A stretch of DNA of 46,131 bases from an uncultured Sulfurimonas sp. (lineage in GTDB: Bacteria > Campylobacterota > Campylobacteria > Campylobacterales > Sulfurimonadaceae), in contig CAZPRE010000001.1 of NCBI GenBank assembly GCA_964588875.1, forward strand, positions 1-46,131, written 5' to 3'. The notes beneath the pieces are model-generated. The model worked only from the letters and a program-made list of their open reading frames with translations. It had not been told where the DNA came from and did not search any database. Positions 708 to 46,131 of this stretch are shown here, piece after piece. Each line of letters starts with the position of its first letter. Positions within the stretch are counted from its first letter, which is position 1. The position numbers were made by a program, and so were the translations under genes.

Positions 708-1943
708 ATGAAAAATTCGAAACTAAGTATTGTAGCTACAGTAGCTATTTTAGGAATATTTTCTGGAGTAAACGCGGGTGAGTTTGACGAGGCATTTAAA
801 AATGGTACTGTTACTGGAGATGCAACTGCTACTTATGAAATGAGAGATCAAGATAAACCGAATCCTGAGGCCATTTACTACAGTGATAGTGCATATGCAG
901 TCGGTTCTGCCGAATTGATTTACAAGACTGCCGATTTTCATAATTTCAGTCTTGCATACGGTCTAAGAGGTTACAAAGTACTTTGGGAAGATGATAAAAA
1001 GTCCATAAGTGGATATGGTGCTTCAGAAGGTACTGGTGATGCTAGTTCAAGATTTTTTAGAATTAATGGTGGTGAACTTGCAGTAACGACTAATGCTTAT
1101 CTAGCATACGATACAGACAAAACTCATGTCAAAGCCGGTCGTCAAGAGCTTAATACAGAATGGATGGATGAACATCATGATGCAGTTAGTATCTATGCTA
1201 ATCCAACTGAAAATCTTGAAGTTGAACTTATCTGGTCAGAAAGCCATTATAGAATGTGGGCAAGAGAGCTATTTTACGGTGGTACAATGGATGGGGTTAT
1301 GGGTAAGATTAACAGTCAAGGAGGCGGACTTTATAAAGCGGGTTTAACTTATAAAATTACAGATTCTCTAAAAGCTAAAGCTTATGCACTTACAGCACCT
1401 GATAACTACTCTGTTTATGGTGGTAAAGTTACTGTTGACACAAAAATAAACGATATTAGCCTCGGTGGTTTTGCTCACTACATGCAAACAGATGAACAAC
1501 TTACTGGTAATGAAGATGGTGAGTTAATAGATGCTAAAGTTTATGTAGGATACTCAGGTTTTACAACAGCATTAGGATACATCCAGACTGGTAAAGATGG
1601 TGGTTGGGGTTCTGCTTATAAAGGTGGCGAAAATGTTGATCCATTTGAAGAAGGTGATGAACTGTATAATTATGTTGCGATAGATTCCCGTACTAGTTAT
1701 ATTACTCTTTCTAAAAGTATTGCAGGTCTAAGTCTAAGCGGTATTTACGGTTTGACGGACTATCGTAGTGTAACAAATAACAAGGACTACTCAAAAAGCG
1801 AATTTTGTGTATGGGCTGGTTACGATATAACAAAAACACTAAATTTAAGTGCAATTCTAACTCTTAACGATGTAGAAAATAATCCTGATTCTAACGAAAG
1901 AGATATGACTCAAGTGAGTACAACACTAGTTTATAATTTCTAA
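708..1943 (+). CDS. Outer-membrane porin, OprD/Campylobacterota major-porin type
   Basis: Start moved to ATG 708 (AAGGA RBS; signal peptide MKNSKLSIVATVAILGIFSGVNA). 'FDEAFKNG', 'KAGRQEL.T.W', amphipathic beta strands, C-terminal YNF. Confidence 0.8.
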   Translation: MKNSKLSIVATVAILGIFSGVNAGEFDEAFKNGTVTGDATATYEMRDQDKPNPEAIYYSDSAYAVGSAELIYKTADFHNFSLAYGLRGYKVLWEDDKKSISGYGASEGTGDASSRFFRINGGELAVTTNAYLAYDTDKTHVKAGRQELNTEWMDEHHDAVSIYANPTENLEVELIWSESHYRMWARELFYGGTMDGVMGKINSQGGGLYKAGLTYKITDSLKAKAYALTAPDNYSVYGGKVTVDTKINDISLGGFAHYMQTDEQLTGNEDGELIDAKVYVGYSGFTTALGYIQTGKDGGWGSAYKGGENVDPFEEGDELYNYVAIDSRTSYITLSKSIAGLSLSGIYGLTDYRSVTNNKDYSKSEFCVWAGYDITKTLNLSAILTLNDVENNPDSNERDMTQVSTTLVYNF

Positions 1944-1958
1944 AAAAAATTAAGAATG

Positions 1959-1990
1959 CAACAGAGATGCTAAGACAGCTCTGTTGTTAT
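1959..1990 (+). terminator. Probable intrinsic terminator after the porin
   Basis: CAACAGAG...CTCTGTTG 8-bp stem with a short T-rich tail. Confidence 0.45.
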
Positions 1991-1998
1991 CAAAAGAC

Positions 1999-2119
1999 TA
2001 TATAGAAATACGGTCTAAGTAGCATAAGTAAATAGAAAAAATTAATACAAACATTCTCTTCTCCTAAATTGGTATGATAATTTAATTCATCTTTTTTGCT
2101 TAGACCGTATCTCTATGTA
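1999..2119. mobile_element. MITE-like or collapsed IS remnant bounded by ~20-bp terminal inverted repeats
   Basis: ATAGAAATACGGTCTAAGTA (2002-2021) vs TGCTTAGACCGTATCTCTAT (2097-2116): 18/20, 12-bp perfect core. Interior has an orphan AGGAG RBS + ATG TTT GTA on the minus strand. No clear target-site duplication. Confidence 0.45.
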
Positions 2120-2282
2120 ATCACTTTAAGAAAAAGACTCCTAGCTAAAAAGTATAAAGCATTCGGACACTTTATGCTAAAATACTGTCACCTAAACGAA
2201 TCAATTATAAGGCTTACTCATACTAGAAGAGAGTTTTAGGGAAGATAGATGTAGAATTGTACAAATATCTGTAGGAGATTTA

Positions 2283-3608
2283 ATGGAGATTATTATTGCG
2301 GGTGCAGGTATGGTTGGTTTTAGACTTGCAACAACACTTAGTGTTAAACATAATGTTACCGTTATCGATAAAAATGTAGATGCAATCCATATGCTTCAAG
2401 AACAGATAGATATTTTTTCTGTAGTCGGGAATGTGGAAGATCCTTCAACTTACAATTCTATTTTAGGAAAGAATGTTGATTTATTTATTGCCGTTACAGA
2501 CAGCGATGAGACCAATATTATTTCGTGTATTATAATAGATGAAGGCCTACAAGTAAAAGACAAAATAGTAAGGCTTAGAAATTCTTTTTTCGCTAAAAGT
2601 TCAATCGCGAGTAAAGTCGGGATTACGGAAGCTGTTTTTCCAATTGCACGAACTGCAAACGCGGTGAAGTCACTCCTTGATTTTCCTAAAGCAACTAGTG
2701 TAAAAAAACTAAATAAAAGTAATTTTCGCCTTATTTCTATACGGGCACAGCATAAGAATCAAGATTATATTCTTGCCCGATCACTCAATTCAAATCACTT
2801 CTCAGTTATTGGTATTGAAAGGAATAAAGAATTTTTTATTCCAAAGTTGAATGATGTACTAAAGCCAAATGATCTTGTTTACTTTTATGGCAGTCCAAAT
2901 GAAATTCAAACTATGTGCTCAAACATGGACACTAAAATGCCAAAAGCAATCAAGAAAATTGTAATTTTTGGTGCTGATCTTCTAGGTATTGAGATTGCAA
3001 AAAAACTTGTAGCTCAGGGTGTAAGCATAAAACTAATAGAAAAAAATCTTGAAAAATGTAAAATAGCTACAGAAATTTTACAAAATGATGTGACAATAAT
3101 AAACAGTCAATATGGAAATGACCGCTTAATTAAAGAAGAGGGTTTGCACAATGCAGATATGATTATTGCAAGTTCTAAAAATGATGAAGAAAATATCGTA
3201 AAATGTATAGAAGCAAAAGAATATGGGGTAGAAAAAGTTGTTGCTATTAACAACGATCCACAAAAGTATGCACTAATGCATAAGTTAGGTATAGTAGTTG
3301 TGAGAGGACAAAAGAATAATGCTTATTATTCAATTATTGAAAAAATAGATTCGAGTTCAATTATTCATGGACGATTGTTTTGTGGAGGAAGTGCCGTGGC
3401 TTTAACAAGAATAATTTATCCAGGTTCAAGATTAATTGAAAAAGTCATTAGCCCGTATGCAGCTAATAAAGTGTATTGTATTTATATTCGTGCAGGTAAA
3501 ATTTCTGCTTTTGATGAACCTTTAATCGTTCAAGTGGACGATTATATTATGTCTTTTTGTACAGCTGATGAGGAAACAAAGGTGAGAAAGTGGATACACA
3601 CTCTATAA
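2283..3608 (+). CDS. trkA: Trk potassium uptake NAD-binding subunit
   Basis: Two RCK/Rossmann domains (IIIAGAGMVG; IVIFGADLLG), 441 aa, overlaps trkH. Confidence 0.9.
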   Translation: MEIIIAGAGMVGFRLATTLSVKHNVTVIDKNVDAIHMLQEQIDIFSVVGNVEDPSTYNSILGKNVDLFIAVTDSDETNIISCIIIDEGLQVKDKIVRLRNSFFAKSSIASKVGITEAVFPIARTANAVKSLLDFPKATSVKKLNKSNFRLISIRAQHKNQDYILARSLNSNHFSVIGIERNKEFFIPKLNDVLKPNDLVYFYGSPNEIQTMCSNMDTKMPKAIKKIVIFGADLLGIEIAKKLVAQGVSIKLIEKNLEKCKIATEILQNDVTIINSQYGNDRLIKEEGLHNADMIIASSKNDEENIVKCIEAKEYGVEKVVAINNDPQKYALMHKLGIVVVRGQKNNAYYSIIEKIDSSSIIHGRLFCGGSAVALTRIIYPGSRLIEKVISPYAANKVYCIYIRAGKISAFDEPLIVQVDDYIMSFCTADEETKVRKWIHTL

Positions 3609-6348: not shown

Positions 6349-7185
6349 CTACTCAACCGTTCTTATCATCTTAATACCAGCATTATGACGAAGTCTTGCG
6401 AAGTAATCACCTAAAACCTGTTCGCGTTTACCTGCTTGGATTTGAGAAATGATTTGAGAACGAACACTCTCTATTCCACCCTCTGAAGCTGACTCTATCG
6501 CTTTAATATAAAAGCTCATATACCCGCCCTTTCCATCAGGAACAATTGAAGTAAAACTATTGAGTGGAGTTTTCTCTAAAAGTTTCGCTAACTCTGGTGA
6601 AATTCTATCGTATGGTAGGACCTGCTCATTTGTTTGAATATCTGGAGAATAAAACATCGGATTATCAATTTTTTCTTGAAGTCTTGCCTGCTCTTTTGAT
6701 TGATATATCACAGCAGTAAAAGCACTAGGATGAGCAAAATCATCTTTATGAAGCTCAAAATATTCTTGAATATCGTCTTCACTTGGCTCTGACATTGCCG
6801 CATATGCTATTGCTGAGTAGAGCTTTTGACTCAGTATCTTATATTTGACTTTTGCTTTTAAGTCGGATGAACCCATACCATTTGAATTTCTTACCGCCTC
6901 ATAAAAGTCACTTACACTCATGTTGTTTCTAGCTGCTGTTTTTTTGATGTCATCATACACTTCACCACTGCTTACCGTGATTTTTCTCTCTTTAGTCTCA
7001 GACTGTTCTAGAGATTTACGAATCAATATATCAGAAGCTTTTTTAGCATCAACTTTTGAGACTTCCATCTCTTTTTTAATATCATAAAGAGTTATGGCAT
7101 CACCTTTGACGACAATAGCCACACCATCAACTATACCCGCGTTTAAGGTTACTACAAAAAGAAGAGTTAAGAATATTTTATACAT
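6349..7185 (-). CDS. SurA-like periplasmic chaperone / peptidyl-prolyl isomerase
   Basis: Signal peptide; 'VDGVAIVVKGDAITLYDI' SurA N-terminus; divergent from gltX. Confidence 0.78.
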   Translation of the reverse strand: MYKIFLTLLFVVTLNAGIVDGVAIVVKGDAITLYDIKKEMEVSKVDAKKASDILIRKSLEQSETKERKITVSSGEVYDDIKKTAARNNMSVSDFYEAVRNSNGMGSSDLKAKVKYKILSQKLYSAIAYAAMSEPSEDDIQEYFELHKDDFAHPSAFTAVIYQSKEQARLQEKIDNPMFYSPDIQTNEQVLPYDRISPELAKLLEKTPLNSFTSIVPDGKGGYMSFYIKAIESASEGGIESVRSQIISQIQAGKREQVLGDYFARLRHNAGIKMIRTVE

Positions 7186-7278: not shown

Positions 7279-8667
7279 ATGGTTGTTACTCGTTTCGCTC
7301 CTTCTCCTACTGGATACTTACATATCGGTGGTCTTCGTACTGCACTTTTTTCATACCTTTGGGCTAAAAAAAATGGTGGTAAATTTGTTCTTCGTATCGA
7401 AGATACTGATAAGGCTCGTAACTCAGAGGAAGCAACTCAAGCTATTTTAGAAGCTTTTGAATGGTTAGGTCTTGAAGCTGATGGTGAGATCACTTATCAA
7501 AGCCAACGCGATGAGATATATGCTAAATACATTAAACAACTTCTTGATGAAGGTAAAGCTTACAAATGTTACATGAGCAAAGAAGAGCTTACCGAGCTTC
7601 GTGAAACTCAAATGGCAAATAAAGAGCGTACTATGTACGATGGTCGTTACCGTGATTTTACTGGAACGCCACCTGAAGGTGTAGAGCCTGTTATCCGTAT
7701 AAAGTCTCCTAAAACTGGTGAGATTATTGTAAAAGATGGTGTTAAGGGTGACATCTCTTTTCAAGCAGAAGATATCTTAGATGATTTTGTAATCGCTAGA
7801 GCTGATGGAGCTCCGACTTATAATTTTGTTGTTGCCATAGATGATCACCTGATGGGAATCAACCAAGTTATCCGTGGAGATGACCATCTCTCAAACACAC
7901 CTAAACAAATAATCGTTTATGAAGCTTTAGGCTTTGATTTGCCAATGTTTAACCATGTACCTATGATTCATAATGCTGCTGGAAAGAAACTTTCTAAACG
8001 CGATGGTGCAACTGATGTTATGGCTTATAAAGAGATGGGTTACACACCACAAGCACTTCTAAACTTTCTTATACGTTTAGGCTGGTCACATGGAGATCAA
8101 GAAATTTTTTCTTTTGATGAAATGATAGAACTTTTCAATCCTAAAGATATTAATAAATCAGCGTCTATCTATAACACTGAAAAGCTTGACTGGTTAAATT
8201 CTCACTACATCAAAAACACTTCAAACACAGAGCTTGCAGAGCTCTTAACACCTTATGATGTTATACTCACTTCACATGACAAAAAAGAGATTTTACTTGA
8301 TGCTTTAAAAGAGAGAGCCAAAACATTAAAAGAACTAGCAGCACTAGTTACTGAGATAGTAACAACTCCTGATTCTTATGATGCAAAAGCAATTAAAAAA
8401 GCTTTTAAAGAAGACACTATTGGAATTTTAAATAGTTTTGGAGCAAAAATATCAGCAGCAGATGAACTACACCTTCCAGGTGATTACCATCATCTTATGG
8501 AAGAAGTTGTTAATGAAATGGAGATTGGTTTTGGAAAGATTGGTATGCCTCTTCGTGTAGCACTTCTTGGAAAAATGGGTGGACCAAGTGTAGATGTTGT
8601 TATGTCCGTTATTGGTCGCGAAGAGACTATGCTTCGTATTGCAAACGCAATAACTGCTAACACTTAA
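7279..8667 (+). CDS. gltX: Glutamate--tRNA ligase
   Basis: RFAPSPTGYLHIGG, RIEDTD, IRGDDH, KLSKR. Confidence 0.97.
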   Translation: MVVTRFAPSPTGYLHIGGLRTALFSYLWAKKNGGKFVLRIEDTDKARNSEEATQAILEAFEWLGLEADGEITYQSQRDEIYAKYIKQLLDEGKAYKCYMSKEELTELRETQMANKERTMYDGRYRDFTGTPPEGVEPVIRIKSPKTGEIIVKDGVKGDISFQAEDILDDFVIARADGAPTYNFVVAIDDHLMGINQVIRGDDHLSNTPKQIIVYEALGFDLPMFNHVPMIHNAAGKKLSKRDGATDVMAYKEMGYTPQALLNFLIRLGWSHGDQEIFSFDEMIELFNPKDINKSASIYNTEKLDWLNSHYIKNTSNTELAELLTPYDVILTSHDKKEILLDALKERAKTLKELAALVTEIVTTPDSYDAKAIKKAFKEDTIGILNSFGAKISAADELHLPGDYHHLMEEVVNEMEIGFGKIGMPLRVALLGKMGGPSVDVVMSVIGREETMLRIANAITANT

Positions 8668-8873: not shown

Positions 8874-10643
8874 ATGAACACTAAACCCATCACATTTAAG
8901 AGTATTTATGCTCTTATTTTACACCAAAAGCCTGCACTCATTTATGGGCAAATTATTACACTCTTAGCTATTTTAGTTAGTGTTCCAATTCCTCTACTTC
9001 TTCCTATAATGGTAGATGAAGTTCTATTAGATAAACCTGCAAACATTGTAAACGCGATTGACTACTTTTTAGATGGAGCCACTGCATTTTATTATATTGC
9101 TATTGTAACTTTTGGTGTTATCTTTTTGAGATTTCTCTACTATTTTTTAACTGTTGTTATTACTAAAGTTTTTACTAAAATCTCCAAATATGTAACCTTT
9201 ATGATTAGAAAAAAATTGCTTGATCATCTTCGTATAGCTTCTATGAACGAGTATGAAACACTTGGAAGCGGAGCAATCACTTCTAATCTTGTCACAGATG
9301 TAAATACTCTAGATGCCTTTATTATTACAGGTATTAGCAAACTAGTCTCCTCTGTTTTAACCCTTGTTGCTGTAGCCATCGTCATGATAGCCATAGACCC
9401 AATTTTAGGTATTTTAATCCTTGTAGTTCAACCCGTAATTATGCTTATGAGTAAAAGAATGTCTAGTATTGTCGGTAAATTAAAAGCTGAAGAAAATGCA
9501 GCAATATCTGATTTTCAAGAAGATGTTGGTGAGACCCTAGAGCTGTTTGGTCAGATTAAAGCGAGTAATCAAGAGAAATATTTCTTCTCACAAGCAACAA
9601 AACTTGCACAGAACATTCAAACTACTTCAAATCAATACAGCTATAAAAATGTAGCCTATGAACGCCTCTCCTACACCATATTTTTAGTAATGTTCGAATT
9701 CATTCGTGCTGCGGGTTTGGTTTTAGTTGCCTATAGTGATTTGAGTATAGGAATGATGTTTGCGATGTTTGGATATATCTGGTTCATTATGACTCCTGTT
9801 CAAGATATGCTCTCTATGCAATATAGTTACTCAGCGGCCAAAGCAGCACTAGAGAGAATAAATAAAATTCTTTTACTTAAAACTGAGAGTAGTGGTACAA
9901 AATGCTTAGAGGAAAAGGAGATAAATATCTCTTTAGAAAATCTCAATTTCTCTTATGTCCAAGGCAAAAAAATACTCAAAGGTATAAGTTTAAATATTTT
10001 CTCTGGATGTAAAATTGCACTTATTGGAGCAAGTGGAAGTGGTAAAACAACTCTAGCACAAGTGATTGCAGGGTTTTATGAAAAATGTGATGGAGATCTC
10101 TTCTTTAATGGTATCAAAACAGAAGAATTAGATAAAGCCACCTTAAGAGCAAAGGTTTTTTTAGTCTTACAAATGCCTATACTTTTTAACTCTAGCCTGC
10201 GTTTTAATATTACTATGGGGGATGAGAGCATTAATGATGAGACTATATATAAAGCACTAAGTATTGCACAACTAGATGATATGGTTGATAACATGGAGAA
10301 TAAACTCGACACCATAGTTGGACATCATGGTATAAGACTCTCAGGTGGTCAACGCCAACGTCTTAGCATAGCTAGAATGATTATCGCAAATCCTAGTGTA
10401 GTCATCTTTGATGAATCGACTTCCGCGCTTGATGTTCATACAGAAGCAAAACTTCAAGCTGAACTTCTACCACTTCTTAAAGAAAAAACAGTTATTACTA
10501 TAGCCCATAGACTTAGTACTGTTAAAAATGCTGATACGATTTATGTACTTGAGGAAGGAAAAATTGTTCAAAGTGGGACACATGAAGAACTCGAAGATGA
10601 AGAGGGACACTATAATGAGTTTGTCAAAAGACAACTGATTTAA
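8874..10643 (+). CDS. ABC exporter, fused permease/ATP-binding protein (MsbA/MdlB-like)
   Basis: N-terminal TM domain; GASGSGKT, LSGGQRQR, IFDES, IAHR. Confidence 0.92.
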   Translation: MNTKPITFKSIYALILHQKPALIYGQIITLLAILVSVPIPLLLPIMVDEVLLDKPANIVNAIDYFLDGATAFYYIAIVTFGVIFLRFLYYFLTVVITKVFTKISKYVTFMIRKKLLDHLRIASMNEYETLGSGAITSNLVTDVNTLDAFIITGISKLVSSVLTLVAVAIVMIAIDPILGILILVVQPVIMLMSKRMSSIVGKLKAEENAAISDFQEDVGETLELFGQIKASNQEKYFFSQATKLAQNIQTTSNQYSYKNVAYERLSYTIFLVMFEFIRAAGLVLVAYSDLSIGMMFAMFGYIWFIMTPVQDMLSMQYSYSAAKAALERINKILLLKTESSGTKCLEEKEINISLENLNFSYVQGKKILKGISLNIFSGCKIALIGASGSGKTTLAQVIAGFYEKCDGDLFFNGIKTEELDKATLRAKVFLVLQMPILFNSSLRFNITMGDESINDETIYKALSIAQLDDMVDNMENKLDTIVGHHGIRLSGGQRQRLSIARMIIANPSVVIFDESTSALDVHTEAKLQAELLPLLKEKTVITIAHRLSTVKNADTIYVLEEGKIVQSGTHEELEDEEGHYNEFVKRQLI

Positions 10644-13246: not shown

Positions 13247-13471
13247 ATGATACCTTCTAAATACCTCCAACTAGTTCAATCATTTTTACTCTCTGGTTTT
13301 ATGAGTTTCATCATGTCGGGAATAATTACTTTTATTAATCTCGGACTAATAGATGGGTTTGTTTTGATATGGCTTCATGCTTGGATATATGCTTATATTA
13401 TCGCGTTTCCTACAATTTTACTGGTTTTTCCTTTTGCTAGAAAACTAGCAATGAAGATAGCATCAAAATAG
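13247..13471 (+). CDS. DUF2798 family small membrane protein
   Basis: LSGFMSFIMSG...WLHAW...AFP pattern. Confidence 0.75.
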   Translation: MIPSKYLQLVQSFLLSGFMSFIMSGIITFINLGLIDGFVLIWLHAWIYAYIIAFPTILLVFPFARKLAMKIASK

Positions 13472-14803: not shown

Positions 14804-15228
14804 GAAAACTACAATGGAAACATGAGAGCGACAGTGTAGATTGGGATGAGCTTTCAAACCTTTACAAGATTGCTCCACTTGGTGATAAAAAAGCGGATAA
14901 TTTAAAAACGGTTTTTTCAAATAGTATGTACAAATGTTTTGTGTATTCTGATGACTCTCTTGTTGGCGTTGGTAGAGCTTTGGCTGATGGTGTTGACTGC
15001 TCATATATTTGTGATGTAGCGATTCACCCTGATTTTCAAGGGCAAGGAATGGGTAAAGAGATAGTCTTGAAACTTGTCGCGTTTAGTAAAGAACATAACA
15101 AAATCATTTTATATGCCAACCCTGGGAAAGAGCCTTTTTACTCTAAACTTGGCTTTGCTAAAATGAACACAGCGATGGCCATTTTTAAAAATCAAGAACA
15201 AGCTAGAGAAGTTGGTTTAGTCACTTGA
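14800..15228 (+). CDS. GNAT family N-acetyltransferase
   Basis: VAIHPDFQGQGMG acetyl-CoA motif; FYSKLGF. Confidence 0.88.
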   Translation: MRKLQWKHESDSVDWDELSNLYKIAPLGDKKADNLKTVFSNSMYKCFVYSDDSLVGVGRALADGVDCSYICDVAIHPDFQGQGMGKEIVLKLVAFSKEHNKIILYANPGKEPFYSKLGFAKMNTAMAIFKNQEQAREVGLVT

Positions 15229-32377: not shown

Positions 32378-34039
32378 TCAGATTTTTGTAAGATTACTCT
32401 TGATAACATCAGCCACCCTAAATGAGTTAGCATAAATCGTCCAAGTGTAAGGGACACTTCCTCCCGTAGGCATAAAGGAAGCATCGCTAATATAGAGGTT
32501 TTCTAGGTCATGTGCCTTACAGTTTTTATCTAGTACGGAGGTTTTTGGATTCTCTCCAAACCTACACCCTCCAGCAACTAAATTTGGTGGAGGGGAAGCT
32601 GAAATACTCATGCTAATATCCTCTGCTCCCATCTCTTCTAAAACCTTCACAGCATTTTTTGCTAAGTGCGTTCCAACTTTCACATCTTGTGGATGTCCCC
32701 AAAGATTAATCGCTCCTACGCTCACTCCAAACTTATCTTTTGAGTCTTTATCTATACTTATAAAACACTCATCAGTTGGTAACCAATCATTAAAGACCTC
32801 AAAACTCAGCACTCTTGAAGTAGTAAGGCTCTTGTGAATTTTGTTTTTTAACTCTTCACCCCAAATAATCTCACCCTCATCATTGTAAAACTCTCTTGTA
32901 GCTCGACTTATGATGTTGGCATGCTCAAATAAGAAGTCTATCGTTCCACCTTTATAGCGTTTACCTTTGTCTTCATAGTCATACCAATCTTGCAGACTTC
33001 TATTAAAGAAGAGTCCGGGTTGCATAAGTTGTTCTTGTTGCACTTTTGTAAGCGTGTTGAAGTTAAATCTTCCCTGACCTGAACCACCAGCAGAGAAGAT
33101 AAGATTTTTACCAACTTCTCCACTAGAATTTGCCATACCATTTGGGAAAAACTTATTACTAGAGTTGAGGAGTAGACGCGATGTCTCAATGGCTTGAGCT
33201 GATAATACAAATATATTAGCTTCAATAGTTTGAGTTTTCAAATCTTTATCATAATAATACACTTTAGTTATCTTACTTTTATCGCTGTCTATCTTATATA
33301 CAAAAGCCTCTGTAATGATTTTAGCCGAGCATTTTTGAAGTAGTGCAGCTCTCGCACTTCCCTTTGCTCCGGTTGCACATCCATAAGATCCACAGAAGTT
33401 TGAATATGCACAGCCCTTTCTGCCAAGAGCATTAACAGGTAGAACTGCTCGCGGTGTTTGAATAGACTCAAAGCCTAACTTTTTACAAGAAGCATCAAAC
33501 CAAGATGTCACCGCGTTTACTTCTAGTGCAGAGTAAGGAAACGATGGAGTTGAACGAGGTTCCGCAAACTTATGTTTACTTACAACGCCACTTACTCCAA
33601 CAACCCTTTCAACTTGTTCATAGTAAGGTTCTAAATCTTCATAGCTAATAGCCCAGTCGATAACATTTGCACCCTCGACCTTGCCGTAAGTAGAGAGAAG
33701 TTTAAAATCATTTGGCTTCATTCTATGAAAGTATCCACTCATAAGATTTGATGAACCGCCTACCATGGAACCGTTCCAAAAATTCCAAGAGTACTCAGCT
33801 CCATCGTAACGAGTAGTACTTCCATCTTTTTCTCTATCGTAAATGATATGGCGTTCATCTTTTAAAAGTGGTGTAAATTTCTCATGTCGTGAGACTGCGA
33901 GTTCATCTTTTGAAAAATCTTTCTCAGAGTAGTTTTTTCCCTTTTCTAAAACAACTACGTTAAACCCTGCGTTTGAGAGCTCATAAGCGATAGGTGAACC
34001 ACCTGCTCCACTTCCAACTATGCATACATCATATTTCAT
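32378..34039 (-). CDS. GMC-family FAD oxidoreductase (gluconate/glucose dehydrogenase alpha-subunit-like) with an Fe-S cysteine motif
   Basis: True start MKYDVCIVGSGAGG at 34039 (ATGA overlap). VGGSS, C-x5-C-x4-C, AIETSRLLL.S, G.CRFG..P..SV.D, NLY.SDAS.MP. Confidence 0.9.
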   Translation of the reverse strand: MKYDVCIVGSGAGGSPIAYELSNAGFNVVVLEKGKNYSEKDFSKDELAVSRHEKFTPLLKDERHIIYDREKDGSTTRYDGAEYSWNFWNGSMVGGSSNLMSGYFHRMKPNDFKLLSTYGKVEGANVIDWAISYEDLEPYYEQVERVVGVSGVVSKHKFAEPRSTPSFPYSALEVNAVTSWFDASCKKLGFESIQTPRAVLPVNALGRKGCAYSNFCGSYGCATGAKGSARAALLQKCSAKIITEAFVYKIDSDKSKITKVYYYDKDLKTQTIEANIFVLSAQAIETSRLLLNSSNKFFPNGMANSSGEVGKNLIFSAGGSGQGRFNFNTLTKVQQEQLMQPGLFFNRSLQDWYDYEDKGKRYKGGTIDFLFEHANIISRATREFYNDEGEIIWGEELKNKIHKSLTTSRVLSFEVFNDWLPTDECFISIDKDSKDKFGVSVGAINLWGHPQDVKVGTHLAKNAVKVLEEMGAEDISMSISASPPPNLVAGGCRFGENPKTSVLDKNCKAHDLENLYISDASFMPTGGSVPYTWTIYANSFRVADVIKSNLTKI

Positions 34040-34524
34040 AAAAGTGCCTTTGTTGGTCTTGGTTCGCCCATAGAAAACTCTAGCCATTTATGTGCTTTTT
34101 CTTCAGAGTTTACTCCATATACTTTATCACTGAAAATGGCTTCCATTGTATATGTTAAGAGAGCAGATATCCATGATTCTCCCCAGTTTTCCCCAGAGAT
34201 GATTTTAAGTACGCTCTGTCTTTGTTTTGAATTTAGCTTTGAGTAAACGCGGTCATATTTTAAAACAGCCTCTTCATTAAGCCACTGCACTCCATTTCTT
34301 AAAAATTGTTTATCTTCATCACTAATTCGAGAGTGTTGTTGCACGATTGTAAGGTAAGCTGAGAGATTTACACCAAGTTCATTGGCAAAAGGAAAAAGAT
34401 CAGTTTGAACCAAGTCGAGTGTTTGGGATGGAGATACTGCTCCAAAAACATTACAACCCGACATAATTAAAACAGCACTACTTAAAAAAGAAGCTTTTAA
34501 GAAAGTTCTACGAGAATTTAACAT
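34036..34524 (-). CDS. Tat-signal small subunit, gluconate 2-dehydrogenase subunit 3 family
   Basis: True start MLNSRRTFLK at 34524; possible lipobox MSGC. '..L...QRQ.VL', 'EA.FSD.VYG.N.....W' motifs. Confidence 0.82.
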   Translation of the reverse strand: MLNSRRTFLKASFLSSAVLIMSGCNVFGAVSPSQTLDLVQTDLFPFANELGVNLSAYLTIVQQHSRISDEDKQFLRNGVQWLNEEAVLKYDRVYSKLNSKQRQSVLKIISGENWGESWISALLTYTMEAIFSDKVYGVNSEEKAHKWLEFSMGEPRPTKALL

Positions 34525-39274: not shown

Positions 39275-39589
39275 ATGTTAATGAAAAAAATAATATTACT
39301 ATGTCTACTCACGTTCGCAAGCCTTCAAGCTCAAATAAAAGAAGATGTTCAAGTTCCTTATATCTCTTATGAGATTAAAATGGGTCAAGGCTTTGATGCT
39401 ATTCAGGCTAACTGTTTAATGTGTCACTCATTTGGTTATATAATCAACCAAGGAGCTCAATCTAAAGAGTTCTGGCATAAAAAAGTTGTGAAAATGATTA
39501 CTCACTTCAAAGCACCTATTGATGAACAAGCAGTTAAAGATACGACTAACTATCTTTTTGAGCATTATGGGAATGGTAAGTTAAAATAA
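39275..39589 (+). CDS. sorB: Monoheme cytochrome c partner of SorA
   Basis: Signal peptide; NCLMCHS..YI, W...V.KM...FKAPI. Directly downstream of sorA. Confidence 0.85.
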   Translation: MLMKKIILLCLLTFASLQAQIKEDVQVPYISYEIKMGQGFDAIQANCLMCHSFGYIINQGAQSKEFWHKKVVKMITHFKAPIDEQAVKDTTNYLFEHYGNGKLK

Positions 39590-39727: not shown

Positions 39728-41557
39728 ATGATACAACTTACAAACATCATAAAAAATTTCGCTTCCCAAGAGCTATTTAACAATCTCAATCTTAAACTAA
39801 ATGCAGGCAACCGTGCAGGTTTAGTGGGTAGAAATGGTAGTGGAAAATCTACTCTTTTTAAGATTATTTTAGGTGAAGAGTCTACTGATGGTGGGGATGT
39901 AATCATCCCTAAAAACTATAAGATTGGAACGCTCAAACAGCACCTTACCTTTTCGGAGTCAACTCTTAGAGAAGAGGCTGCCTTAGCTTTAGAAGATGAG
40001 ATGAAGTATGATGTTTACAGAGTAGAAAAAATCCTTTTTGGTCTTGGTTTTTCACAAGAAGATTTAGACAAAGATCCTCTCTCATTTTCTGGTGGATTTC
40101 AGATTCGCATTAACTTAGCCAAACTACTTGTGACTGAACCAAATCTTCTTCTACTCGATGAACCAACCAACTACCTTGATATTGTCTCTCTTCGTTGGTT
40201 AAAAAACTTTTTACGAGCATTTGAAGGTGAAGTGATTCTTATCACCCACAACCGTGACTTTATGGATAGTGTCTGTACTCACACTATGGGTCTTGTACGT
40301 AAAAACATAGAGATGATTGCGGGCGACACTCATAAGTTTTATGAACAACTCTCTTCTAATGATGAACTTTATGGCAAACAAAAAGTAGCACAAGACAAAA
40401 AGGTAAAAGAGCTTGAAGAATTTATAGCTAGAAACAAGGCAAGAGCTTCAACTGCAGCCCTTGCACAATCTAAAGTAAAACAGTTAGAAAAAATGGACTT
40501 GATGGACTCGCTAGCACTTGATAATGCCTTGGACTTTAACTTCAACTTCAAAGAGACAACCTCAAAAGTAATACTTGAAGTTGAGAACCTTAGCTTTGGA
40601 TACACTCCTGAAAACTTACTCTTTAAAGATATGTCTTTTAACATCAAACGCGGTGAATGCATAGGAATAATTGGTAAAAACGGTAAGGGTAAATCAACGC
40701 TTCTAAACACTCTAGCCCACGAGCTAAAAGCACTCAGTGGAGAAATCCACTCACATCCATCCGTAGAGTTTGCACACTTTGGCCAAACAAACATAGCAAG
40801 ACTTCACGAGAAGTCAACTGTAACAGATGAGATTCACTCTGCAAATACGAAGCTATCAACACAGGTCATAAGAAGTATCTGTGGTGCGATGATGTTTAGT
40901 GGAGATGCAGCTGATAAAAAAGTATCTCTTCTCTCTGGTGGAGAAAAATCTCGTGTTATGCTTGGTCAAATTTTAGCAAGACAAGTAAATCTTCTTTTTC
41001 TTGATGAGCCTACAAACCACCTTGATATGGACTCGATAGAGGCACTAACAAATGCCATACAAATGTTTGAGGGTAGTGTTATAATCGTTACTCACTCCGA
41101 AGAGTTACTTCGAAGAGTTTGCGATAGACTTATCATTTTTGCTAAAGATGGGGCTGAGTATTTCGATGGTGGCTACGATCTATTTTTAGAGAAAATTGGT
41201 TGGGAAGATGAAGAGAAAGAAGAGAGACTCAAAGTCGCTCCAAAATCAAACAACAAAGAGAACAAAAAACTCAAAGCAGAGTTAGTTCGTGAGCGAAATA
41301 AAATAACTTCACCTCTAAAGAAAAAAGTTGATAAACTTGAAAACAGTATTATGAAGCTTGAAGCATCTCTTGAGGTTCACCATCAAGAACTTATAGAGGC
41401 TTCAAATGCCGGAGATAGTGCTTCACTTATGGAACTCTCTAAAACTGTGTCAGATCAAGAGAAAAAAGTTGAAGAAGCATTCGGGGAGTTTGAAGAACTC
41501 TCAACCCAACTTGAAGAAATAAACGAAGATTATGAGACAAAAATAGGAGAGTTATAA
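39728..41557 (+). CDS. ABC-F family ATP-binding protein (YheS/Uup-like, C-terminal coiled coil)
   Basis: GRNGSGKST/FSGG/DEPTNYLD and GKNGKGKST/LSGGEK/DEPTNHLD. Confidence 0.92.
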   Translation: MIQLTNIIKNFASQELFNNLNLKLNAGNRAGLVGRNGSGKSTLFKIILGEESTDGGDVIIPKNYKIGTLKQHLTFSESTLREEAALALEDEMKYDVYRVEKILFGLGFSQEDLDKDPLSFSGGFQIRINLAKLLVTEPNLLLLDEPTNYLDIVSLRWLKNFLRAFEGEVILITHNRDFMDSVCTHTMGLVRKNIEMIAGDTHKFYEQLSSNDELYGKQKVAQDKKVKELEEFIARNKARASTAALAQSKVKQLEKMDLMDSLALDNALDFNFNFKETTSKVILEVENLSFGYTPENLLFKDMSFNIKRGECIGIIGKNGKGKSTLLNTLAHELKALSGEIHSHPSVEFAHFGQTNIARLHEKSTVTDEIHSANTKLSTQVIRSICGAMMFSGDAADKKVSLLSGGEKSRVMLGQILARQVNLLFLDEPTNHLDMDSIEALTNAIQMFEGSVIIVTHSEELLRRVCDRLIIFAKDGAEYFDGGYDLFLEKIGWEDEEKEERLKVAPKSNNKENKKLKAELVRERNKITSPLKKKVDKLENSIMKLEASLEVHHQELIEASNAGDSASLMELSKTVSDQEKKVEEAFGEFEELSTQLEEINEDYETKIGEL

Positions 41558-42018
41558 TGAATAAAGAGTTATATTTTTTACGCTCAAGTGAGCAGAAGAT
41601 AGTTAAAGATATGTTTAAATTAGCACATCCAACCGGCAGTGATGAGTTGCTAAAATATACAGAGTATTATGGACTAACAACAAAAGATTTAGGACTTTAT
41701 GCTCTTGTAGACAATGAAATAGCGGGAGCAATTTGGAGTAGAGTATTAAATCCAGGTGAGCCACCGCGTTTGAGTCTTGCAGTAGTTGCTAAGTTTAAAA
41801 AAACGGGTATAGGTTCATTTATGATGGATCAATTTTTACAAGAGGCTGCAGCTTTATATGAAGAGATTTGTATAGATATCTCTCATAAACCAAAGGCGAT
41901 AAAGTTTTATGAAAAATATGGTTTTGAAAACAATAACTTACTTCTAAGTAAAAAATTAGAAAAGAAAGAAGTGTCTCGTCCTAGTGACGGTTACGACCCT
42001 AACAGGTGGATGGATTAA
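41557..42018 (+). CDS. GNAT family N-acetyltransferase
   Basis: GAIW.R, LAV...FKKTGIGS, A.KFYEKYGF. Confidence 0.8.
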   Translation: MNKELYFLRSSEQKIVKDMFKLAHPTGSDELLKYTEYYGLTTKDLGLYALVDNEIAGAIWSRVLNPGEPPRLSLAVVAKFKKTGIGSFMMDQFLQEAAALYEEICIDISHKPKAIKFYEKYGFENNNLLLSKKLEKKEVSRPSDGYDPNRWMD

Positions 42019-43226: not shown

Positions 43227-43730
43227 CTACAACCACTCTTCAAGCTTTCCTTGCATATCTACATGTGTAAGGTAAAGTCTTAAATCAAACTCTACTTGAT
43301 GATAAGAAGGCTGCATATATTCACAAAGTTTGTAAAAAGCTTTGTTATGCTCTTTTTCTTTAAAATGGGCTAATTCATGCACCACTATCATTTCTAAAAA
43401 CTCTTCTGGAACACTCTTAAACATTGAAGCGATTCTAATCTCATTTTTTGCTTTTAACTTACTTCCTTGAACTCTAGAGATAAAATGATGTGTACCAAGT
43501 GCATTATGAATAACATTTATCTTGCCATCATATATAGTTTTACTCAGCGGCGGTGACTTTCTGAGATATTCATTTTTAATATCCATCGCATAGGAAAAAA
43601 GAGCTTTATCATTTTTCTTTGTATGAGATTTAGGGTATTTTTTTAGTAAATGTGATGAGAGTTTATCCGCGTTTATAAGTTTTTGCACCTGTTCTACCAC
43701 TGAGGGTGGATAGTGATTTAGATACTTCAT
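43227..43730 (-). CDS. YgjP-like metal-dependent hydrolase (HExxH)
   Basis: SRVQG.KLKAK.EIR.AS.FK..P..FL.MIVVHELAH.KEK.H.KAFY.LC. Confidence 0.85.
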   Translation of the reverse strand: MKYLNHYPPSVVEQVQKLINADKLSSHLLKKYPKSHTKKNDKALFSYAMDIKNEYLRKSPPLSKTIYDGKINVIHNALGTHHFISRVQGSKLKAKNEIRIASMFKSVPEEFLEMIVVHELAHFKEKEHNKAFYKLCEYMQPSYHQVEFDLRLYLTHVDMQGKLEEWL

Positions 43731-43785
43731 TACAGGGCCTCCACTCTATTTCTACCATTTACTTTGGCTATTATCTCGCTAAATC

Positions 43786-45153
43786 CTATAAAATCCAGGC
43801 AGAGAACTTTTTAGACTTAATCTTACCCTGTGAGATGCTCTTTTGTGCTTCATCTATAAATCTTCTTTGTATCGCCACATAAGCCTGTCTATCATAGATA
43901 TCTATCTTGCCTATATCACTCCCTTTAAGACCAGCATCACCGGTTAGCGCACCCAAAATATCACCAGCTCTGAGTTTGTCTTTTTTACCACCCTCTATGA
44001 CAAGTGTTACATAGTCTGGTTTCATTTCAAAACCATTTTGTGCTTTTAAATCAGCTGCATTTTCAAAAAGTCGTATACCATTTTTATACTCTTCTACCTT
44101 CTCATCTTCATAATGTGTATAAAGAGTAAACGCCATACCCTCAGCTCCCGCACGACCTGTTCGTCCTATTCGGTGAGTATATGTCTCACTAGAATGAGGA
44201 AGGTCATAGTTTACAACCATTGCAAGCTCTTTTATATCAAGTCCACGTGCCGCTACATCTGTTGCCACTAAAACTCTTGCAGACTTATTTGAAAACTGAA
44301 CTAAGACATCATTTCTATCATACTGCTCCATATCTCCATGAAGGGCAAGTGCATCTATTTTCATCTTTTGAAGTGTTTGTGCCACCTCATCACACTCCAC
44401 CTTTGTGTTACAAAATACAATGGCATTTGATGGGTTAAAGCTACTAAAAATATTTACCATAATTTGAAGTTTATTATTCTCTACTTCGTAAAAGTGCTCT
44501 GTAATCTTGTTTGTAGATTCAACTGCTGTAGTTTTGACATTAATAGCATCGTTTTGAAGCTTCTTACTCATACTCATAATCTCATTAGGATAGGTAGCTG
44601 AGAAAAGTAGTGTTTGTCTCTCTTTAGGAGCATAAGCTATTACCTTTTCTATCTCCTCAATAAAGCCCATATCTAACATTCTATCTGCTTCATCAAGAAC
44701 TAAAGTGTCCATATTATCAAGATTTAAAGTCTCTTTATCAAGGTGCTTTAAAATTCGTCCTGGAGTTCCGACAATGATATGCGCGCCATGACGAAGAGAA
44801 CCTAGTTGTGGGCCAAACGCGGCTCCACCTACAAGAGTAAGAATTTTTATATTGTGTGCAAATTTAGCTATCACTCTTAACTCTTTTGCAACCTGATCAG
44901 CTAACTCACGAGTAGGACAGAGTATAAGTGTCTGAACACGGAACTTCTTAACCTGAAGTTTACAGAGCAGACCTATACCAAACGCGGCAGTCTTTCCACT
45001 CCCTGTTTTTGCCTGTGCAATAACATCTTTACCTTCAAGAATAAGAGGAAGTGCCTCTGCTTGAATAGGTGTCATCTGTGTATAGCCTATCTTATCTAGA
45101 TTTTGTAACATCTCCGGTGAGAGATTAAGGGATGTGAAGTTTGTTTGATTCAT
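43786..45153 (-). CDS. dbpA: ATP-dependent RNA helicase DbpA
   Basis: AKTGSGKT, PTRELA, DEAD, SAT, HRIGRTGRAG, and the C-terminal GGKKDKLRAGDILGAL RNA-binding domain. Confidence 0.95.
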   Translation of the reverse strand: MNQTNFTSLNLSPEMLQNLDKIGYTQMTPIQAEALPLILEGKDVIAQAKTGSGKTAAFGIGLLCKLQVKKFRVQTLILCPTRELADQVAKELRVIAKFAHNIKILTLVGGAAFGPQLGSLRHGAHIIVGTPGRILKHLDKETLNLDNMDTLVLDEADRMLDMGFIEEIEKVIAYAPKERQTLLFSATYPNEIMSMSKKLQNDAINVKTTAVESTNKITEHFYEVENNKLQIMVNIFSSFNPSNAIVFCNTKVECDEVAQTLQKMKIDALALHGDMEQYDRNDVLVQFSNKSARVLVATDVAARGLDIKELAMVVNYDLPHSSETYTHRIGRTGRAGAEGMAFTLYTHYEDEKVEEYKNGIRLFENAADLKAQNGFEMKPDYVTLVIEGGKKDKLRAGDILGALTGDAGLKGSDIGKIDIYDRQAYVAIQRRFIDEAQKSISQGKIKSKKFSAWIL

Positions 45154-45248
45154 TTATATATTTCCTATTTTATATGTTTTCTATTTGAGAGACTGCACTA
45201 TTCTCTAAGTCTATAGGCTCTTTTGCTATGTCTAGCAGTTTTAGATCT

Positions 45249-45399
45249 TTATGGTAATTTTATCGTAAACTGAGCGCCATCGTTTATATTTTGCACATAA
45301 ATTTGACCATTCATATGTGTTTGGATTATTATTCTGCTCATATAAAGCCCCAAACCTGTACCATTTTTCTCACCCTTAGTGCTAAAGGTCTTCGAATAT
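45249..45399 (-). pseudogene. C-terminal sliver of a sensor histidine kinase (HATPase_c)
   Basis: IFE / frameshift / [45 protein letters not shown]. These are the F and G2 boxes; there is no upstream gene body. Confidence 0.8.
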
Positions 45400-45415
45400 A
45401 ACCATTCTTTATGAG

Positions 45416-46131
45416 TTATTTGTTAATTTTAAATTGGTACATTAAAATCGAAGCGGCTACTCCAACGTTAAAACTCCTAACCTCTCCACTCATCTCAATC
45501 TCAACGCATGCATCACAAACATCTATAATCTCTTTAGAGAGCCCTTTACCCTCATGTCCCATCAATACAACCCATTTTTTTGGTACAACAATATCTTTAA
45601 GTTTAATGGCATTTGAATCAACTTCCGCTGCAAAAATCTTGTATCCTGTTTTTTGCAGTAATTTGATTGTAGTAACAATATCTTTGTATATATTATATTT
45701 TAGCTTTGAGATATGCCCCATTGAAACGCGAAGAGACCTACGAGAGTATGGATGTGGTGCATCAGTTGGCACAAGATAAGAGTTTACACCAAGTGCAGCT
45801 GCACTTCTTGCGATAGAACCAATATTTTCAGTCGAAGTAATCGAATCTAGCATAATTATATTATCATCTAATTCTTCAAGAAGTGTCTCCTTTGGACGAA
45901 TACCATGAAGCATACAGTTATGATGGATTTTATGACCTACAATATTTTGCATCTCCTGTTTATCCACCACATAAAGATTCTCAATCTCTCTTTTACTTAC
46001 TAAGTCTTTAAACTCTTCATAGTACTCTTTGGTAGCTAAGATACTTTTTACCTCTATATCACTCTCTAGAATGATGTTAACTACCTTTGGACTGTCGGCT
46101 ATAAAACTACCATCTTCTTTAAACGCGGTGT
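45416..46131 (-). CDS. TrmH/SpoU family RNA 2'-O-methyltransferase; 5' end outside the window
   Basis: [31 protein letters not shown]. The frame stays open from 45970 to the window edge. Confidence 0.9.

What the first reader, a model, noticed from the sequence alone, without database searches (positions are those of the whole stretch)
770..46128. AAACGCGG occurs about once per 2.2 kb: a DNA-uptake-sequence-like or HIP1-like signal
Seen: at least 21 exact copies (12 plus, 9 minus), and 19 of 21 are YAAACGCGG. Further AAACGCG[A] relatives lie near 6423, 7996, 9050, 13403, 15078, 20915, 22844 and 45724. Assuming roughly one-third GC (estimated by eye), a zero-order expectation is below one copy in 46 kb. 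All copies are in coding sequence but in five frame/strand contexts: Asn-Ala 13, Ala-Phe 3, Pro-Arg 2, Arg-Val 2, Lys-Arg 1, using GC-rich codons. Known: Pasteurellaceae uptake sequences (AAGTGCGGT, ACAAGCGGT) share the GCGG core and are similarly dispersed and non-polar, whereas Chi and KOPS are strand-biased. Inference: the word is enriched at the DNA level, by uptake bias in natural transformation or by a CGCG-methylation/repair process. I know of no description for this lineage.
Basis: partly seen in the sequence, partly recalled or inferred. Interest (0 to 1): 0.8.

Follow-up and report, generated by a model that had tools for sequence, protein, structure and literature searches.

The report
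Sulfurimonas genome-wide DNA word with dialects
This Sulfurimonas bacterium carries one nine-letter DNA word about once every two kilobases, mostly inside its genes, and related species carry their own spellings of it; the word is likely a self-DNA tag for natural transformation, which would add a third family of such tags to those of Neisseria and Haemophilus, but its reader is unidentified.

Summary
Confirmed, and larger than reported. The window is from a Sulfurimonas genome (G000, 1.95 Mb, 34% GC). AAACGCGG occurs 21 times in the window (0.22 expected) and 637 times genome-wide; the consensus YAAACGCGR occurs 877 times. It survives synonymous-codon and codon-pair nulls (617 vs 42 and 123), is enriched in all six frames and in spacers, and is not replichore-polar. 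It fills 32% of the sites where codons allow it and has reshaped the proteome (LNA, NAV, TAF). Other Sulfurimonas carry aligned dialects (YAAACGCCA, YAAACGCAG, CTCACGCAG, CACATGCC, TACATGTAR, YAGATGCCA). In a closed relative the word is absent from 60 kb of plasmid and weak in unshared genes. Competence genes are present. These are hallmarks of uptake sequences, but terminator pairs and AT flanks are missing, and no pilin, ComEC, AddB or MutS tracks the dialects better than housekeeping genes do. CGCG methylation is rejected. A LlaJI-like C5 methylase accompanies most AAACGC-type genomes (13 of 18, against 1 of 27 others) but is neither necessary nor sufficient. Best reading: transformation-coupled drive (about 45%). 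I found no description in the papers searched.

The parts
770..777 (+). AAACGCGG copy, Asn-Ala frame, Opr-family porin gene
2657..2664 (+). AAACGCGG copy, Asn-Ala frame, trkA-like gene
6422..6429 (-). AAACGCGA variant (second commonest spelling, 358 genome-wide)
7137..7144 (-). AAACGCGG copy, Asn-Ala frame, ORF 6349-7185(-); relatives mostly read LNAE/LSAE here
7996..8003 (+). AAACGCGA variant in gltX, invariant SKRD peptide; exact 9-mer in 17 of 80 relatives
9050..9057 (+). AAACGCGA variant, ABC transporter gene (VNAI; relatives VNSI/VETI/VDAI)
13401..13408 (-). AAACGCGA variant
15077..15084 (-). AAACGCGA variant
15692..15699 (+). AAACGCGG copy, Asn-Ala frame, mutY-like gene
20914..20921 (+). 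AAACGCGA variant
21765..21772 (+). AAACGCGG copy, Asn-Ala frame
21926..21933 (+). AAACGCGG copy, Asn-Ala frame, RND adaptor gene
21996..22003 (-). AAACGCGG copy, antisense Pro-Arg frame (no 5' pyrimidine)
22214..22221 (+). AAACGCGG copy, Asn-Ala frame
22742..22749 (+). AAACGCGG copy, Asn-Ala frame
22843..22850 (-). AAACGCGA variant
23150..23157 (-). AAACGCGG copy, antisense Arg-Val frame, CusA/CzcA gene (no 5' pyrimidine)
27469..27476 (-). AAACGCGG copy, Asn-Ala frame
28188..28195 (-). AAACGCGG copy, Asn-Ala frame
28422..28429 (-). AAACGCGG copy, Asn-Ala frame
33511..33518 (-). AAACGCGG copy, Asn-Ala frame
34245..34252 (+). AAACGCGG copy, antisense Arg-Val frame of ORF 34036-34647(-)
   Evidence: frame by arithmetic
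40646..40653 (+). AAACGCGG copy, Lys-Arg-Gly frame, ABC-F gene (IKRG where 6 of 8 relatives have LEKG)
41764..41771 (-). AAACGCGG copy, antisense Pro-Arg frame
43667..43674 (-). AAACGCGG copy, Asn-Ala frame (INAD where relatives have IKED/IKQD)
44815..44822 (+). AAACGCGG copy, antisense Ala-Phe frame, dbpA
44980..44987 (+). AAACGCGG copy, antisense Ala-Phe frame, dbpA
45724..45731 (+). AAACGCGA variant
46121..46128 (+). AAACGCGG copy, antisense Ala-Phe frame

Best explanation
YAAACGCGR is a non-palindromic, non-polar DNA word written 877 times through this Sulfurimonas genome, with species-specific spellings across the genus, and it is likely a recognition tag for the natural-transformation machinery that would accumulate by molecular drive. 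SHOWN: DNA-level enrichment in all frames and in spacers; graded specificity (Y-R-A-A-Y-G-C-V-R, with positions 3, 4, 6 and 7 strict); point-mutation origin and turnover at permissive protein positions; no replichore polarity; absence from plasmid DNA and weakness in unshared genes; one aligned family of dialects; competence genes present. INFERRED: a protein of the MSHA/Cts-like uptake pilus, or a later transformation step, prefers DNA carrying the word.
For: 617 vs 42 (synonymous shuffle), enriched in 6 of 6 frames; 617 vs 123 and 25 under codon-pair nulls; 845 of 2629 synonymous opportunities realised, and intergenic 23 vs 1.2. LNA, NAV and TAF are 3 of the 5 most over-represented tripeptides; amino-acid identity to orthologues is 67% at motif codons vs 76% elsewhere; only 35 of 649 orthologous positions carry the same 9-mer. 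PMC2817400 (passages) reports tripeptide enrichment and rarity in transferred genes for uptake sequences. No polarity: 435 vs 442 on inferred leading/lagging strands; closed G012, 78 of 144 forward copies in the first half; closed G231, 35 vs 38. G012 plasmid 0 copies in 60 of 82 kb (1.5 expected by shuffle, about 18 at the chromosomal rate); shared genes 8.4x, no-hit genes 2.5x. Dialects. ComEC in G000 and in 45 of 50 relatives, DprA 5 of 5, ComE, MshEN-type ATPase, two pilins directly upstream of priA. That is the position of Cj0683, needed to start DNA uptake in C. jejuni, whose uptake is sequence-selective (PMC10046745, passages). 98% of 10-kb stretches carry a site (113 of 115).
Against: No intergenic or terminator bias (16 of 637 intergenic; one intergenic hairpin among 17 close opposite pairs), whereas about half of DUS/USS lie in predicted terminators (10.1101/2025.10.24.684340, passages). 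No AT-rich flanks. No receptor: priA-adjacent, MshD/MshO-like and T2SS pilins and ComEC do not track dialects better than housekeeping proteins. Competence genes also persist where no word was found (G239: none in 83 kb, yet ComEC and pilins present). The test for gene flow between same-dialect genomes was inconclusive (Z from -1.7 to +2.4). Plasmid and accessory depletion is also expected for Chi. Earlier scan notes describe similar words with dialects in phages and giant viruses, which have no uptake machinery (unchecked), so the pattern does not name the mechanism. I found no report of natural transformation in Sulfurimonas.
Confidence: 0.45

Rival explanations
1. Methylation-linked creation or maintenance, as modelled for HIP1. 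A LlaJI/HgaI-like C5 methylase marks the ACGC/GCGT core, and a methylation-dependent repair or selection step (for example the MutS with a C-terminal HNH-like domain) favours sites in one flanking context.
For: The G000 C5 methylase has 64-73% identical homologues in 13 of 18 AAACGC-type genomes and in 1 of 27 others. It is 43% identical to the first methylase of the LlaJI cassette on pNP40 (that LlaJI and HgaI read GACGC is recalled). Genomes with it deplete CACGC, TACGC and GCGC (pooled 0.47-0.68 vs 0.78-1.07 in AAACGC genomes without it), which points to an RCGY-like target inside the word. Alternate HIPs come with matching methylases (PMC4390886, passages). MutS-HNH is present in 49 of 53 genomes.
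Against: Not found in G215, G216, G217 and G237, which have strong YAAACGCAG and no CACGC or GCGC depletion; present in G239, which has no word. Its general effect is depletion, not enrichment. Its target-recognition region is nearly the same in genomes with different tails. Most other dialects lack ACGC, and other methylases are not dialect-specific in the samples taken. No D12 or N6_N4 methylase found in G000 (86.5% complete). No Vsr in 5 of 5. The MutS HNH region is near-invariant across dialects. No GC3 halo around sites. Methylase carriers are mostly one clade, so shared ancestry can explain the association.
Confidence: 0.2
2. A non-polar Chi-like site read by AddAB: the word switches the helicase-nuclease from degrading to recombining, protects self DNA, and is selected in the core genome.
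For: AddAB is present (AddB in 41 of 41; AddA NCBIfam PRK13909; AddB model matches solved AddB). Density and depletion in plasmid and accessory genes fit Chi. Non-polarised Chi candidates are reported for Vibrio (10.1101/2020.08.13.249359, passages). AddB residue 477 (Arg/His vs Ser/Ala/Asn) separates dialects with C at position 3 from the rest in 28 of 28 genomes when the two AGATT genomes are left out; it is one of 2 such columns among 8583 and is not a footprint of the word.
Against: No replichore polarity in three genomes, and polarity is the usual Chi criterion. The AddB tree needs at least 4 changes for AAACGC and 3 for ACATG. Both AGATT genomes break the residue-477 rule. The residue ends the helix 460-477, where helicase motif VI lies (recalled), not the Chi tunnel. 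Housekeeping columns separate other positions equally well (MltG 152). Chi is reported to evolve slowly (same preprint, passages), while these dialects switch within one genus.
Confidence: 0.15
3. Binding site of an unidentified chromosomal or defence protein (nucleoid, segregation, or a self/non-self sensor) that needs roughly one site every few kilobases, wherever they lie.
For: Graded specificity, no orientation rule, and position-free turnover. Plasmid DNA lacks it. Similar words are noted in viruses and other bacteria with unknown readers (unchecked notes).
Against: Spacing is random to clumped (CV 1.11-1.12), not regular. Sister species differ sharply (G214 has the word, G239 does not), and no family word was significant in 43 of 77 samples (many short), which is hard to square with an essential chromosome function. 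Selection on one site among hundreds would have to be strong enough to change amino acids. No candidate protein was identified.
Confidence: 0.17
4. Codon or codon-pair usage, peptide motifs, or a binning artefact.
For: Two frames (Asn-Ala and Ala-Phe) hold about 75% of coding copies; the realised fraction rises with gene GC3.
Against: All six frames and spacers are enriched; 5x above a codon-pair null that has itself learnt from the word, 25x when masked; spread over the contigs (chi2 368 on 241 df); repeated in two closed genomes.
Confidence: 0.03

Closest known systems
DNA uptake sequences: Neisseriaceae DUS (receptor ComP) and Pasteurellaceae USS, with dialects (passages of PMC7811141, PMC2817400, 10.1101/2025.10.24.684340)
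   Same: Short non-palindromic word in hundreds of copies; both strands; arises by point mutation; raises the tripeptides it encodes; sits in less conserved protein positions; rare in recently acquired DNA; lineage dialects; competence genes present.
   Different: Unrelated sequence; about 1 per 2.2 kb; no terminator pairs or intergenic bias; no AT-rich flanks; dialects differ more and switch within one genus; some species show none; no receptor identified; uptake untested.
Methylated RAATTY uptake signal of Campylobacter jejuni (PMC10046745, passages; methylase name CtsM recalled)
   Same: Same order and the same kind of uptake machine (MshEN-type ATPase, pilins upstream of priA, ComEC, ComE); sequence-selective uptake; a methylase with a likely target inside the word accompanies one dialect group.
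   Different: RAATTY is under-represented in G000 (0.73); no D12 or N6_N4 methylase found in G000; the word here is asymmetric, 9 bp, and occurs without the methylase in at least four genomes.
HIP1 (GCGATCGC) and alternate HIPs of cyanobacteria (PMC4390886, passages)
   Same: Highly iterated GC-rich word in coding DNA, with lineage replacements, and a C5 methylase associated with one group.
   Different: Not palindromic; the methylase is neither necessary nor sufficient and depletes its target elsewhere; no dialect-specific methylase found for the other spellings.
Chi sites of RecBCD/AddAB (10.1101/2020.08.13.249359, passages)
   Same: Asymmetric 8-9-mer at one per few kb, core-genome biased; AddAB present.
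   Different: No leading-strand polarity; rapid dialect change; strong imprint on protein sequence; AddB does not follow the dialects.

Membership tests
DNA uptake sequences (DUS/USS) | Strong genome-wide over-representation of one short non-palindromic word | tested here: met
DNA uptake sequences (DUS/USS) | No orientation bias relative to replication | tested here: met
   435 vs 442 (strand inferred from skew); closed genomes
DNA uptake sequences (DUS/USS) | Tripeptide enrichment and location in less conserved protein positions | tested here: met
DNA uptake sequences (DUS/USS) | Rare in recently acquired or mobile DNA | tested here: met
   G012 plasmid 0 in 60 kb; no-hit genes 2.5x vs shared 8.4x; one genome, regions chosen partly for gaps
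DNA uptake sequences (DUS/USS) | Lineage dialects | tested here: met
DNA uptake sequences (DUS/USS) | Competence genes present | tested here: met
DNA uptake sequences (DUS/USS) | Inverted pairs in terminators, intergenic excess | tested here: not met
   16 of 637 intergenic; 1 intergenic hairpin; fold enrichment in spacers about equal to that in genes
DNA uptake sequences (DUS/USS) | AT-rich flanking segments (USS only) | tested here: not met
DNA uptake sequences (DUS/USS) | A pilin receptor whose sequence follows the dialect | tested here: inconclusive
   no candidate above housekeeping background among 31 protein families
DNA uptake sequences (DUS/USS) | Word-dependent DNA uptake | not testable with these tools
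   needs an uptake assay
Chi (RecBCD/AddAB) | Polarised on the leading strand | tested here: not met
Chi (RecBCD/AddAB) | Core-genome over-representation with AddAB present | tested here: met
Chi (RecBCD/AddAB) | Modulates the helicase-nuclease | not testable with these tools
   needs biochemistry
HIP1 / alternate HIPs | Palindromic | tested here: not met
   the sequence; only the TACATGTA dialect is palindromic
HIP1 / alternate HIPs | Cognate methylase present wherever the word is abundant | tested here: not met
   13 of 18 AAACGC-type genomes, not found in G207, G215-G217 and G237, present in G239; none specific to other dialects in limited samples; most genomes are incomplete
HIP1 / alternate HIPs | Word is methylated in vivo | not testable with these tools
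   needs a methylome
KOPS (FtsK) | Strongly polarised from origin to terminus | tested here: not met

The most novel reading that the evidence does not exclude
Sulfurimonas evolved a third, independent family of DNA uptake sequences with a fast-switching reader. Coexisting species tag their chromosomes with different spellings of one 9-bp scaffold, rewrite their proteins to fit it, and use it as a species barrier for gene exchange; in one clade the tag carries a methyl mark, linking it to the methylation-dependent uptake of Campylobacter.
Probability: 0.4. Interest if true: 0.88.

Novelty: new variant of a known kind. Interest (0 to 1): 0.74.

Why it matters
In the papers I read, uptake tags of this abundant, dialect-forming kind are described only for Neisseriaceae and Pasteurellaceae. 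A third family in free-living Campylobacterota would show that the tags are not tied to mucosal life. In practice the word marks resident against acquired DNA in these genomes, and it may matter for making Sulfurimonas genetically tractable.

Tried and rejected
(1) CGCG methylation or Vsr repair: CGCG not touching A or T on either side is depleted, 0.44-0.49; Vsr 0 of 5. (2) RAATTY enrichment: 0.73. (3) GAATCACGAAT in L069/G230 and AACGGCAG in G022 looked like dialects but are local repeats; an ACGAC candidate was not significant. (4) Convergent pairs 25-50 bp apart are in excess in G000 (10 vs 2.2) but not in relatives (2 convergent vs 3 divergent among 404 sites). (5) Reader search by co-variation across 31 protein families, including pilins, ComEC, PriA, DnaB, MutS-HNH, AddA (partial) and AddB: no candidate above housekeeping background. 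The AddB profile found no PDB sequence; the fold search found AddB but gave no residue mapping. (6) Gene flow between same-dialect genomes: 8 quartet sets scored (a ninth had too few genes), Z from -1.7 to +2.4, no consistent sign. (7) GC3 halo or 5'/3' asymmetry around sites: none within genes. (8) Population polymorphism at sites: only two low-depth contig sets were available and one 19.9-kb stretch was laid; uninformative. (9) De novo word search in 11 other families of the order, 17-38 kb each: nothing comparable except AAATTT-type words in G029 and unexamined words in G027; too little sequence to exclude other words. (10) One-clade AU tests were not obtained (script error). (11) A paper on the LlaJI site was not held, so that site is recalled. 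No complex prediction was run.

Full report
1. Observation. The window holds 21 exact AAACGCGG, 12 on the plus strand and 9 on the minus, against 0.22 expected. The window is contig C1 of G000 (1.95 Mb, 242 contigs, 34% GC, 86.5% complete). The best 80 gltX relatives are titled mostly Sulfurimonas, so I treat G000 as a Sulfurimonas. The window genes are ordinary.

2. Genome-wide anatomy. AAACGCGG occurs 637 times and its family heads the Markov ranking at k=6 to 10. YAAACGCGR occurs 877 times, one per 2.2 kb. Flanks carry information only from about -3 to +2, with no distal AT tracts. Against synonymous shuffles, single changes at positions 3, 4, 6 and 7 of TAAACGCGG fall to chance. C or G at 1, G at 2, T at 5, A or C at 8 and A at 9 stay 2- to 28-fold enriched. 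YAAACGCCA (111 vs 24) and YAAACGCAG (141 vs 52) are also enriched, while YAAACGCAA is not (54 vs 58). Gene calls are my own ORF caller (2052 genes). In genes the word stands at 617 vs 42 under synonymous shuffling, enriched in 6 of 6 frames: 275/15.9, 189/5.2, 93/17.5, 36/1.8, 16/1.9 and 8/0.2. A codon-pair null gives 123, or 25 when motif sites are masked in training. Of 2629 places where the protein allows YAAACGCGR, 845 carry it; spacers hold 23 against 1.2. The realised fraction rises with gene GC3 (0.17 to 0.42), as composition predicts. Spacing is random to clumped (CV 1.11-1.12). There is no terminator use: 16 of 637 copies are intergenic, and 1 of 17 close opposite pairs is an intergenic hairpin.

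3. Imprint on proteins. LNA, NAV and TAF are among the five most over-represented tripeptides. In 223 genes with orthologues in fetched loci (135 sites covered), identity at motif codons is 67% against 76% elsewhere, and only 35 of 649 orthologous positions have the same 9-mer. Examples: TAFR where relatives have TASR or TALR, and IKRG where they have LEKG. Sites therefore arise by point mutation, turn over, and can change amino acids. PMC2817400 (passages) reports tripeptide enrichment and rarity in transferred genes for uptake sequences.

4. Polarity. With the leading strand inferred from third-position skew, G000 has 435 copies on the leading and 442 on the lagging strand (the inference is noisy). 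In closed G012, 78 of 144 forward TAAACGCCA lie in the first half of the chromosome (counted by hand; skew signs). In closed G231, forward TAGATGCCA split 35 and 38 (counted by hand). Sampled regions of G231 gave a mild 82 vs 60 for the broader pattern. Chi is normally defined by polarity, although non-polar candidates are reported in Vibrio (10.1101/2020.08.13.249359, passages).

5. Distribution and dialects. YAAACGCGG is highest in G000 among 194 genomes of the genus (578 copies; next 297, 225 and 151). YAAACGCVR exceeds its reversed control more than 3-fold in only 2 of 221 genomes drawn across the order, both of this genus (33x and 12x). Other Sulfurimonas samples have other top words, confirmed against codon shuffles with added regions: YAAACGCCA (G207), YAAACGCAG (G215), CTCACGCAG (G206, the genome of L046, S. 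indica), CACATGCC (G221), TACATGTAR (G225), YAGATGCCA (G231, the genome of L019), AGATTCYA (G228), and also YAAACGCGA, YAAACGCYA and TCACGTGA. Genome-wide, G012 has 266 TAAACGCCA against 2 controls, and G231 has 142 TAGATGCCA against 15. By eye these align on one scaffold, Y-W-N-A-Y-G-Y-N-R; AGATTCYA departs at one core position. A family word reached p<1e-4 in 34 of 77 samples of 8 kb or more. The patterns were chosen from partly the same loci and many negatives are short, so this is a rough figure; G212 and G236 were labelled only. G239 shows none in 83 kb while its sister G214 has AAACGCAG. Dialects cluster on trees but are not single clades: the AddB tree forces at least 4 changes for AAACGC and 3 for ACATG, and the gltX and concatenated trees agree in placing G215-G217 among ACATG genomes and G226 beside G206 (backbones poorly resolved). 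A CCACATGCC copy inside addB encodes Thr-Cys in ACATG genomes, and the Cys persists in AGATG and AGATT genomes. I read this as a fossil of an earlier dialect (inference).

6. Resident against mobile DNA. In G012, 60 of 82 kb of the second replicon (resolvase, transposase and partition-like ORFs by eye) hold 0 copies. Chromosomal genes shared with G000 are 8.4-fold enriched, weak-hit genes 7.2-fold, and no-hit genes 2.5-fold. Twenty chromosomal regions were sampled, some chosen for gaps in the site list.

7. Candidate readers. G000 has ComEC, ComE, DprA, GspE-, MshE- and PilT-sized ATPases and seven prepilin genes near or above the cut-off. Two pilins lie just upstream of priA, where C. jejuni has cj0683, needed to start DNA uptake; C. 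jejuni uptake depends on methylated RAATTY (PMC10046745, passages). I did not test orthology by sequence. ComEC was found in 45 of 50 relatives. None of 31 protein families tracked dialects above the housekeeping background. The MutS with a C-terminal HNH-like domain (49 of 53 genomes) is near-invariant in that domain. AddB residue 477 is the one lead: Arg/His in 9 of 9 genomes with C at position 3 and Ser/Ala/Asn in 19 of 19 others when the two AGATT genomes, which break the rule, are left out. It ends the helix where helicase motif VI lies (motif recalled), so I weigh it lightly. The model matches solved AddB.

8. Methylases. G000's one C5 methylase lies beside an HNH nuclease. It is 43% identical to the first methylase of the LlaJI cassette of pNP40; the GACGC site of LlaJI and HgaI is recalled. 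Close homologues occur in 13 of 18 AAACGC-type genomes and 1 of 27 others. Carriers deplete CACGC, TACGC and GCGC, so the target is likely RCGY-like and the word is likely methylated in G000 (inference). But G215-G217 and G237 have the word without this enzyme or the CACGC/GCGC depletion, G239 has the enzyme without the word, and other methylases do not sort by dialect (33 genomes for C5, 5 for N6). CGCG not touching A or T on either side is depleted, and no Vsr was found. S. denitrificans has m5C in CGCG, CCNGG, GATC and CCGG (PMC8112702, passages), none specific to this word. G000 also holds an MmeI-type enzyme, cut by a contig end, which I did not follow up.

9. Mechanism. Every distributional step is shown; uptake and reader are inferred. 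Rivals: methylation-linked creation as for HIP1 (0.2; PMC4390886, passages), an unknown chromosomal or defence protein (0.17), non-polar Chi (0.15), codon artefact (0.03). It works like an uptake sequence in distribution. It cannot be filed as a DUS/USS member, since terminator pairs and AT flanks were tested and not met and uptake is untested.

10. Novelty. Searches pairing Sulfurimonas or Campylobacterota with uptake sequences or Chi found no paper. Six broader searches listed nothing on this word (listings and abstract starts only, apart from the papers named; one search was for Cj0683). The library holds open-access papers only, and I read no supplements, so k-mer tables in supplements or subscription papers could hold it. 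A 2025 review names Neisseria as the exception that needs an uptake sequence (PMC12236230, passages). The scan's own notes have nothing on this genome or genus but list similar words with dialects in other bacteria, phages and giant viruses.

11. Verdict. Real, genome-wide and genus-structured, and not described in the papers searched. New variant of a known kind. Interest 0.74.

Noticed in passing
window 14045-14803 (+): Intact chromosomal class D beta-lactamase (NCBIfam bla_class_D_main above its cut-off; nearest named model OXA-198-like, below its cut-off), upstream of a mutY-like gene.
   Followed up: no
L087:5209-7348 (G000:C15:8208-10347): C5 methylase plus HNH nuclease; homologues sit at different loci in relatives, with the nuclease in G012 and without it in L088. 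Likely RCGY-like target, with strong depletion of GCGC, CACGC and TACGC in carriers.
   Followed up: partly
L095:4038-7001 (G000:C25:9037-12078): MutS with a C-terminal HNH-like domain next to comE; found in 49 of 53 relatives at 72-89% identity. The name MutS7 for this type is recalled.
   Followed up: partly
L266:1064-3409 (addB), residues 309-310 and 477: A CCACATGCC/TACATGT copy encodes Thr-Cys in ACATG-dialect genomes and the Cys persists in other dialects (possible fossil); residue 477 switches Arg/Ser with the dialect's third base, with two exceptions.
   Followed up: partly
L094:1907-3185 (G000:C172): ORF with a ComEA-like helix-hairpin-helix followed by a short ZorA-like segment, upstream of an ORF that looks ZorB/MotB-like by eye; possibly a Zorya remnant.
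   Followed up: no
L097:4351-6549 (G000:C108): MmeI-type Type IIG enzyme in two ORFs, cut by the contig end.
   Followed up: no
L137-L166 (priA loci of relatives): Up to three hypervariable pilin genes lie upstream of priA in most loci; G214 and G239 have a different upstream gene there.
   Followed up: partly
L047, L048, L051, L053, L055, L059: A clade without a family word but with strong AAAAGAG (287 vs 92) and CTTCAAGC (34 vs 5.9) excess against codon shuffles; AAAAGAG is raised in most samples of the genus and may be codon-pair bias.
   Followed up: no
L198 (G027:C1:1-20000): Several 8-mers 6- to 30-fold over shuffle in 19 kb of a genome from another family; probably a repeat protein, not checked.
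   Followed up: no
window 35982-39589: Multiheme cytochrome-like gene and a SorA/SorB-like sulfite dehydrogenase pair, all below their model cut-offs.
   Followed up: no
G000, whole genome: Convergent YAAACGCGR pairs 25-50 bp apart are in excess (10 vs 2.2) inside genes; not seen in relatives; unexplained.
   Followed up: yes
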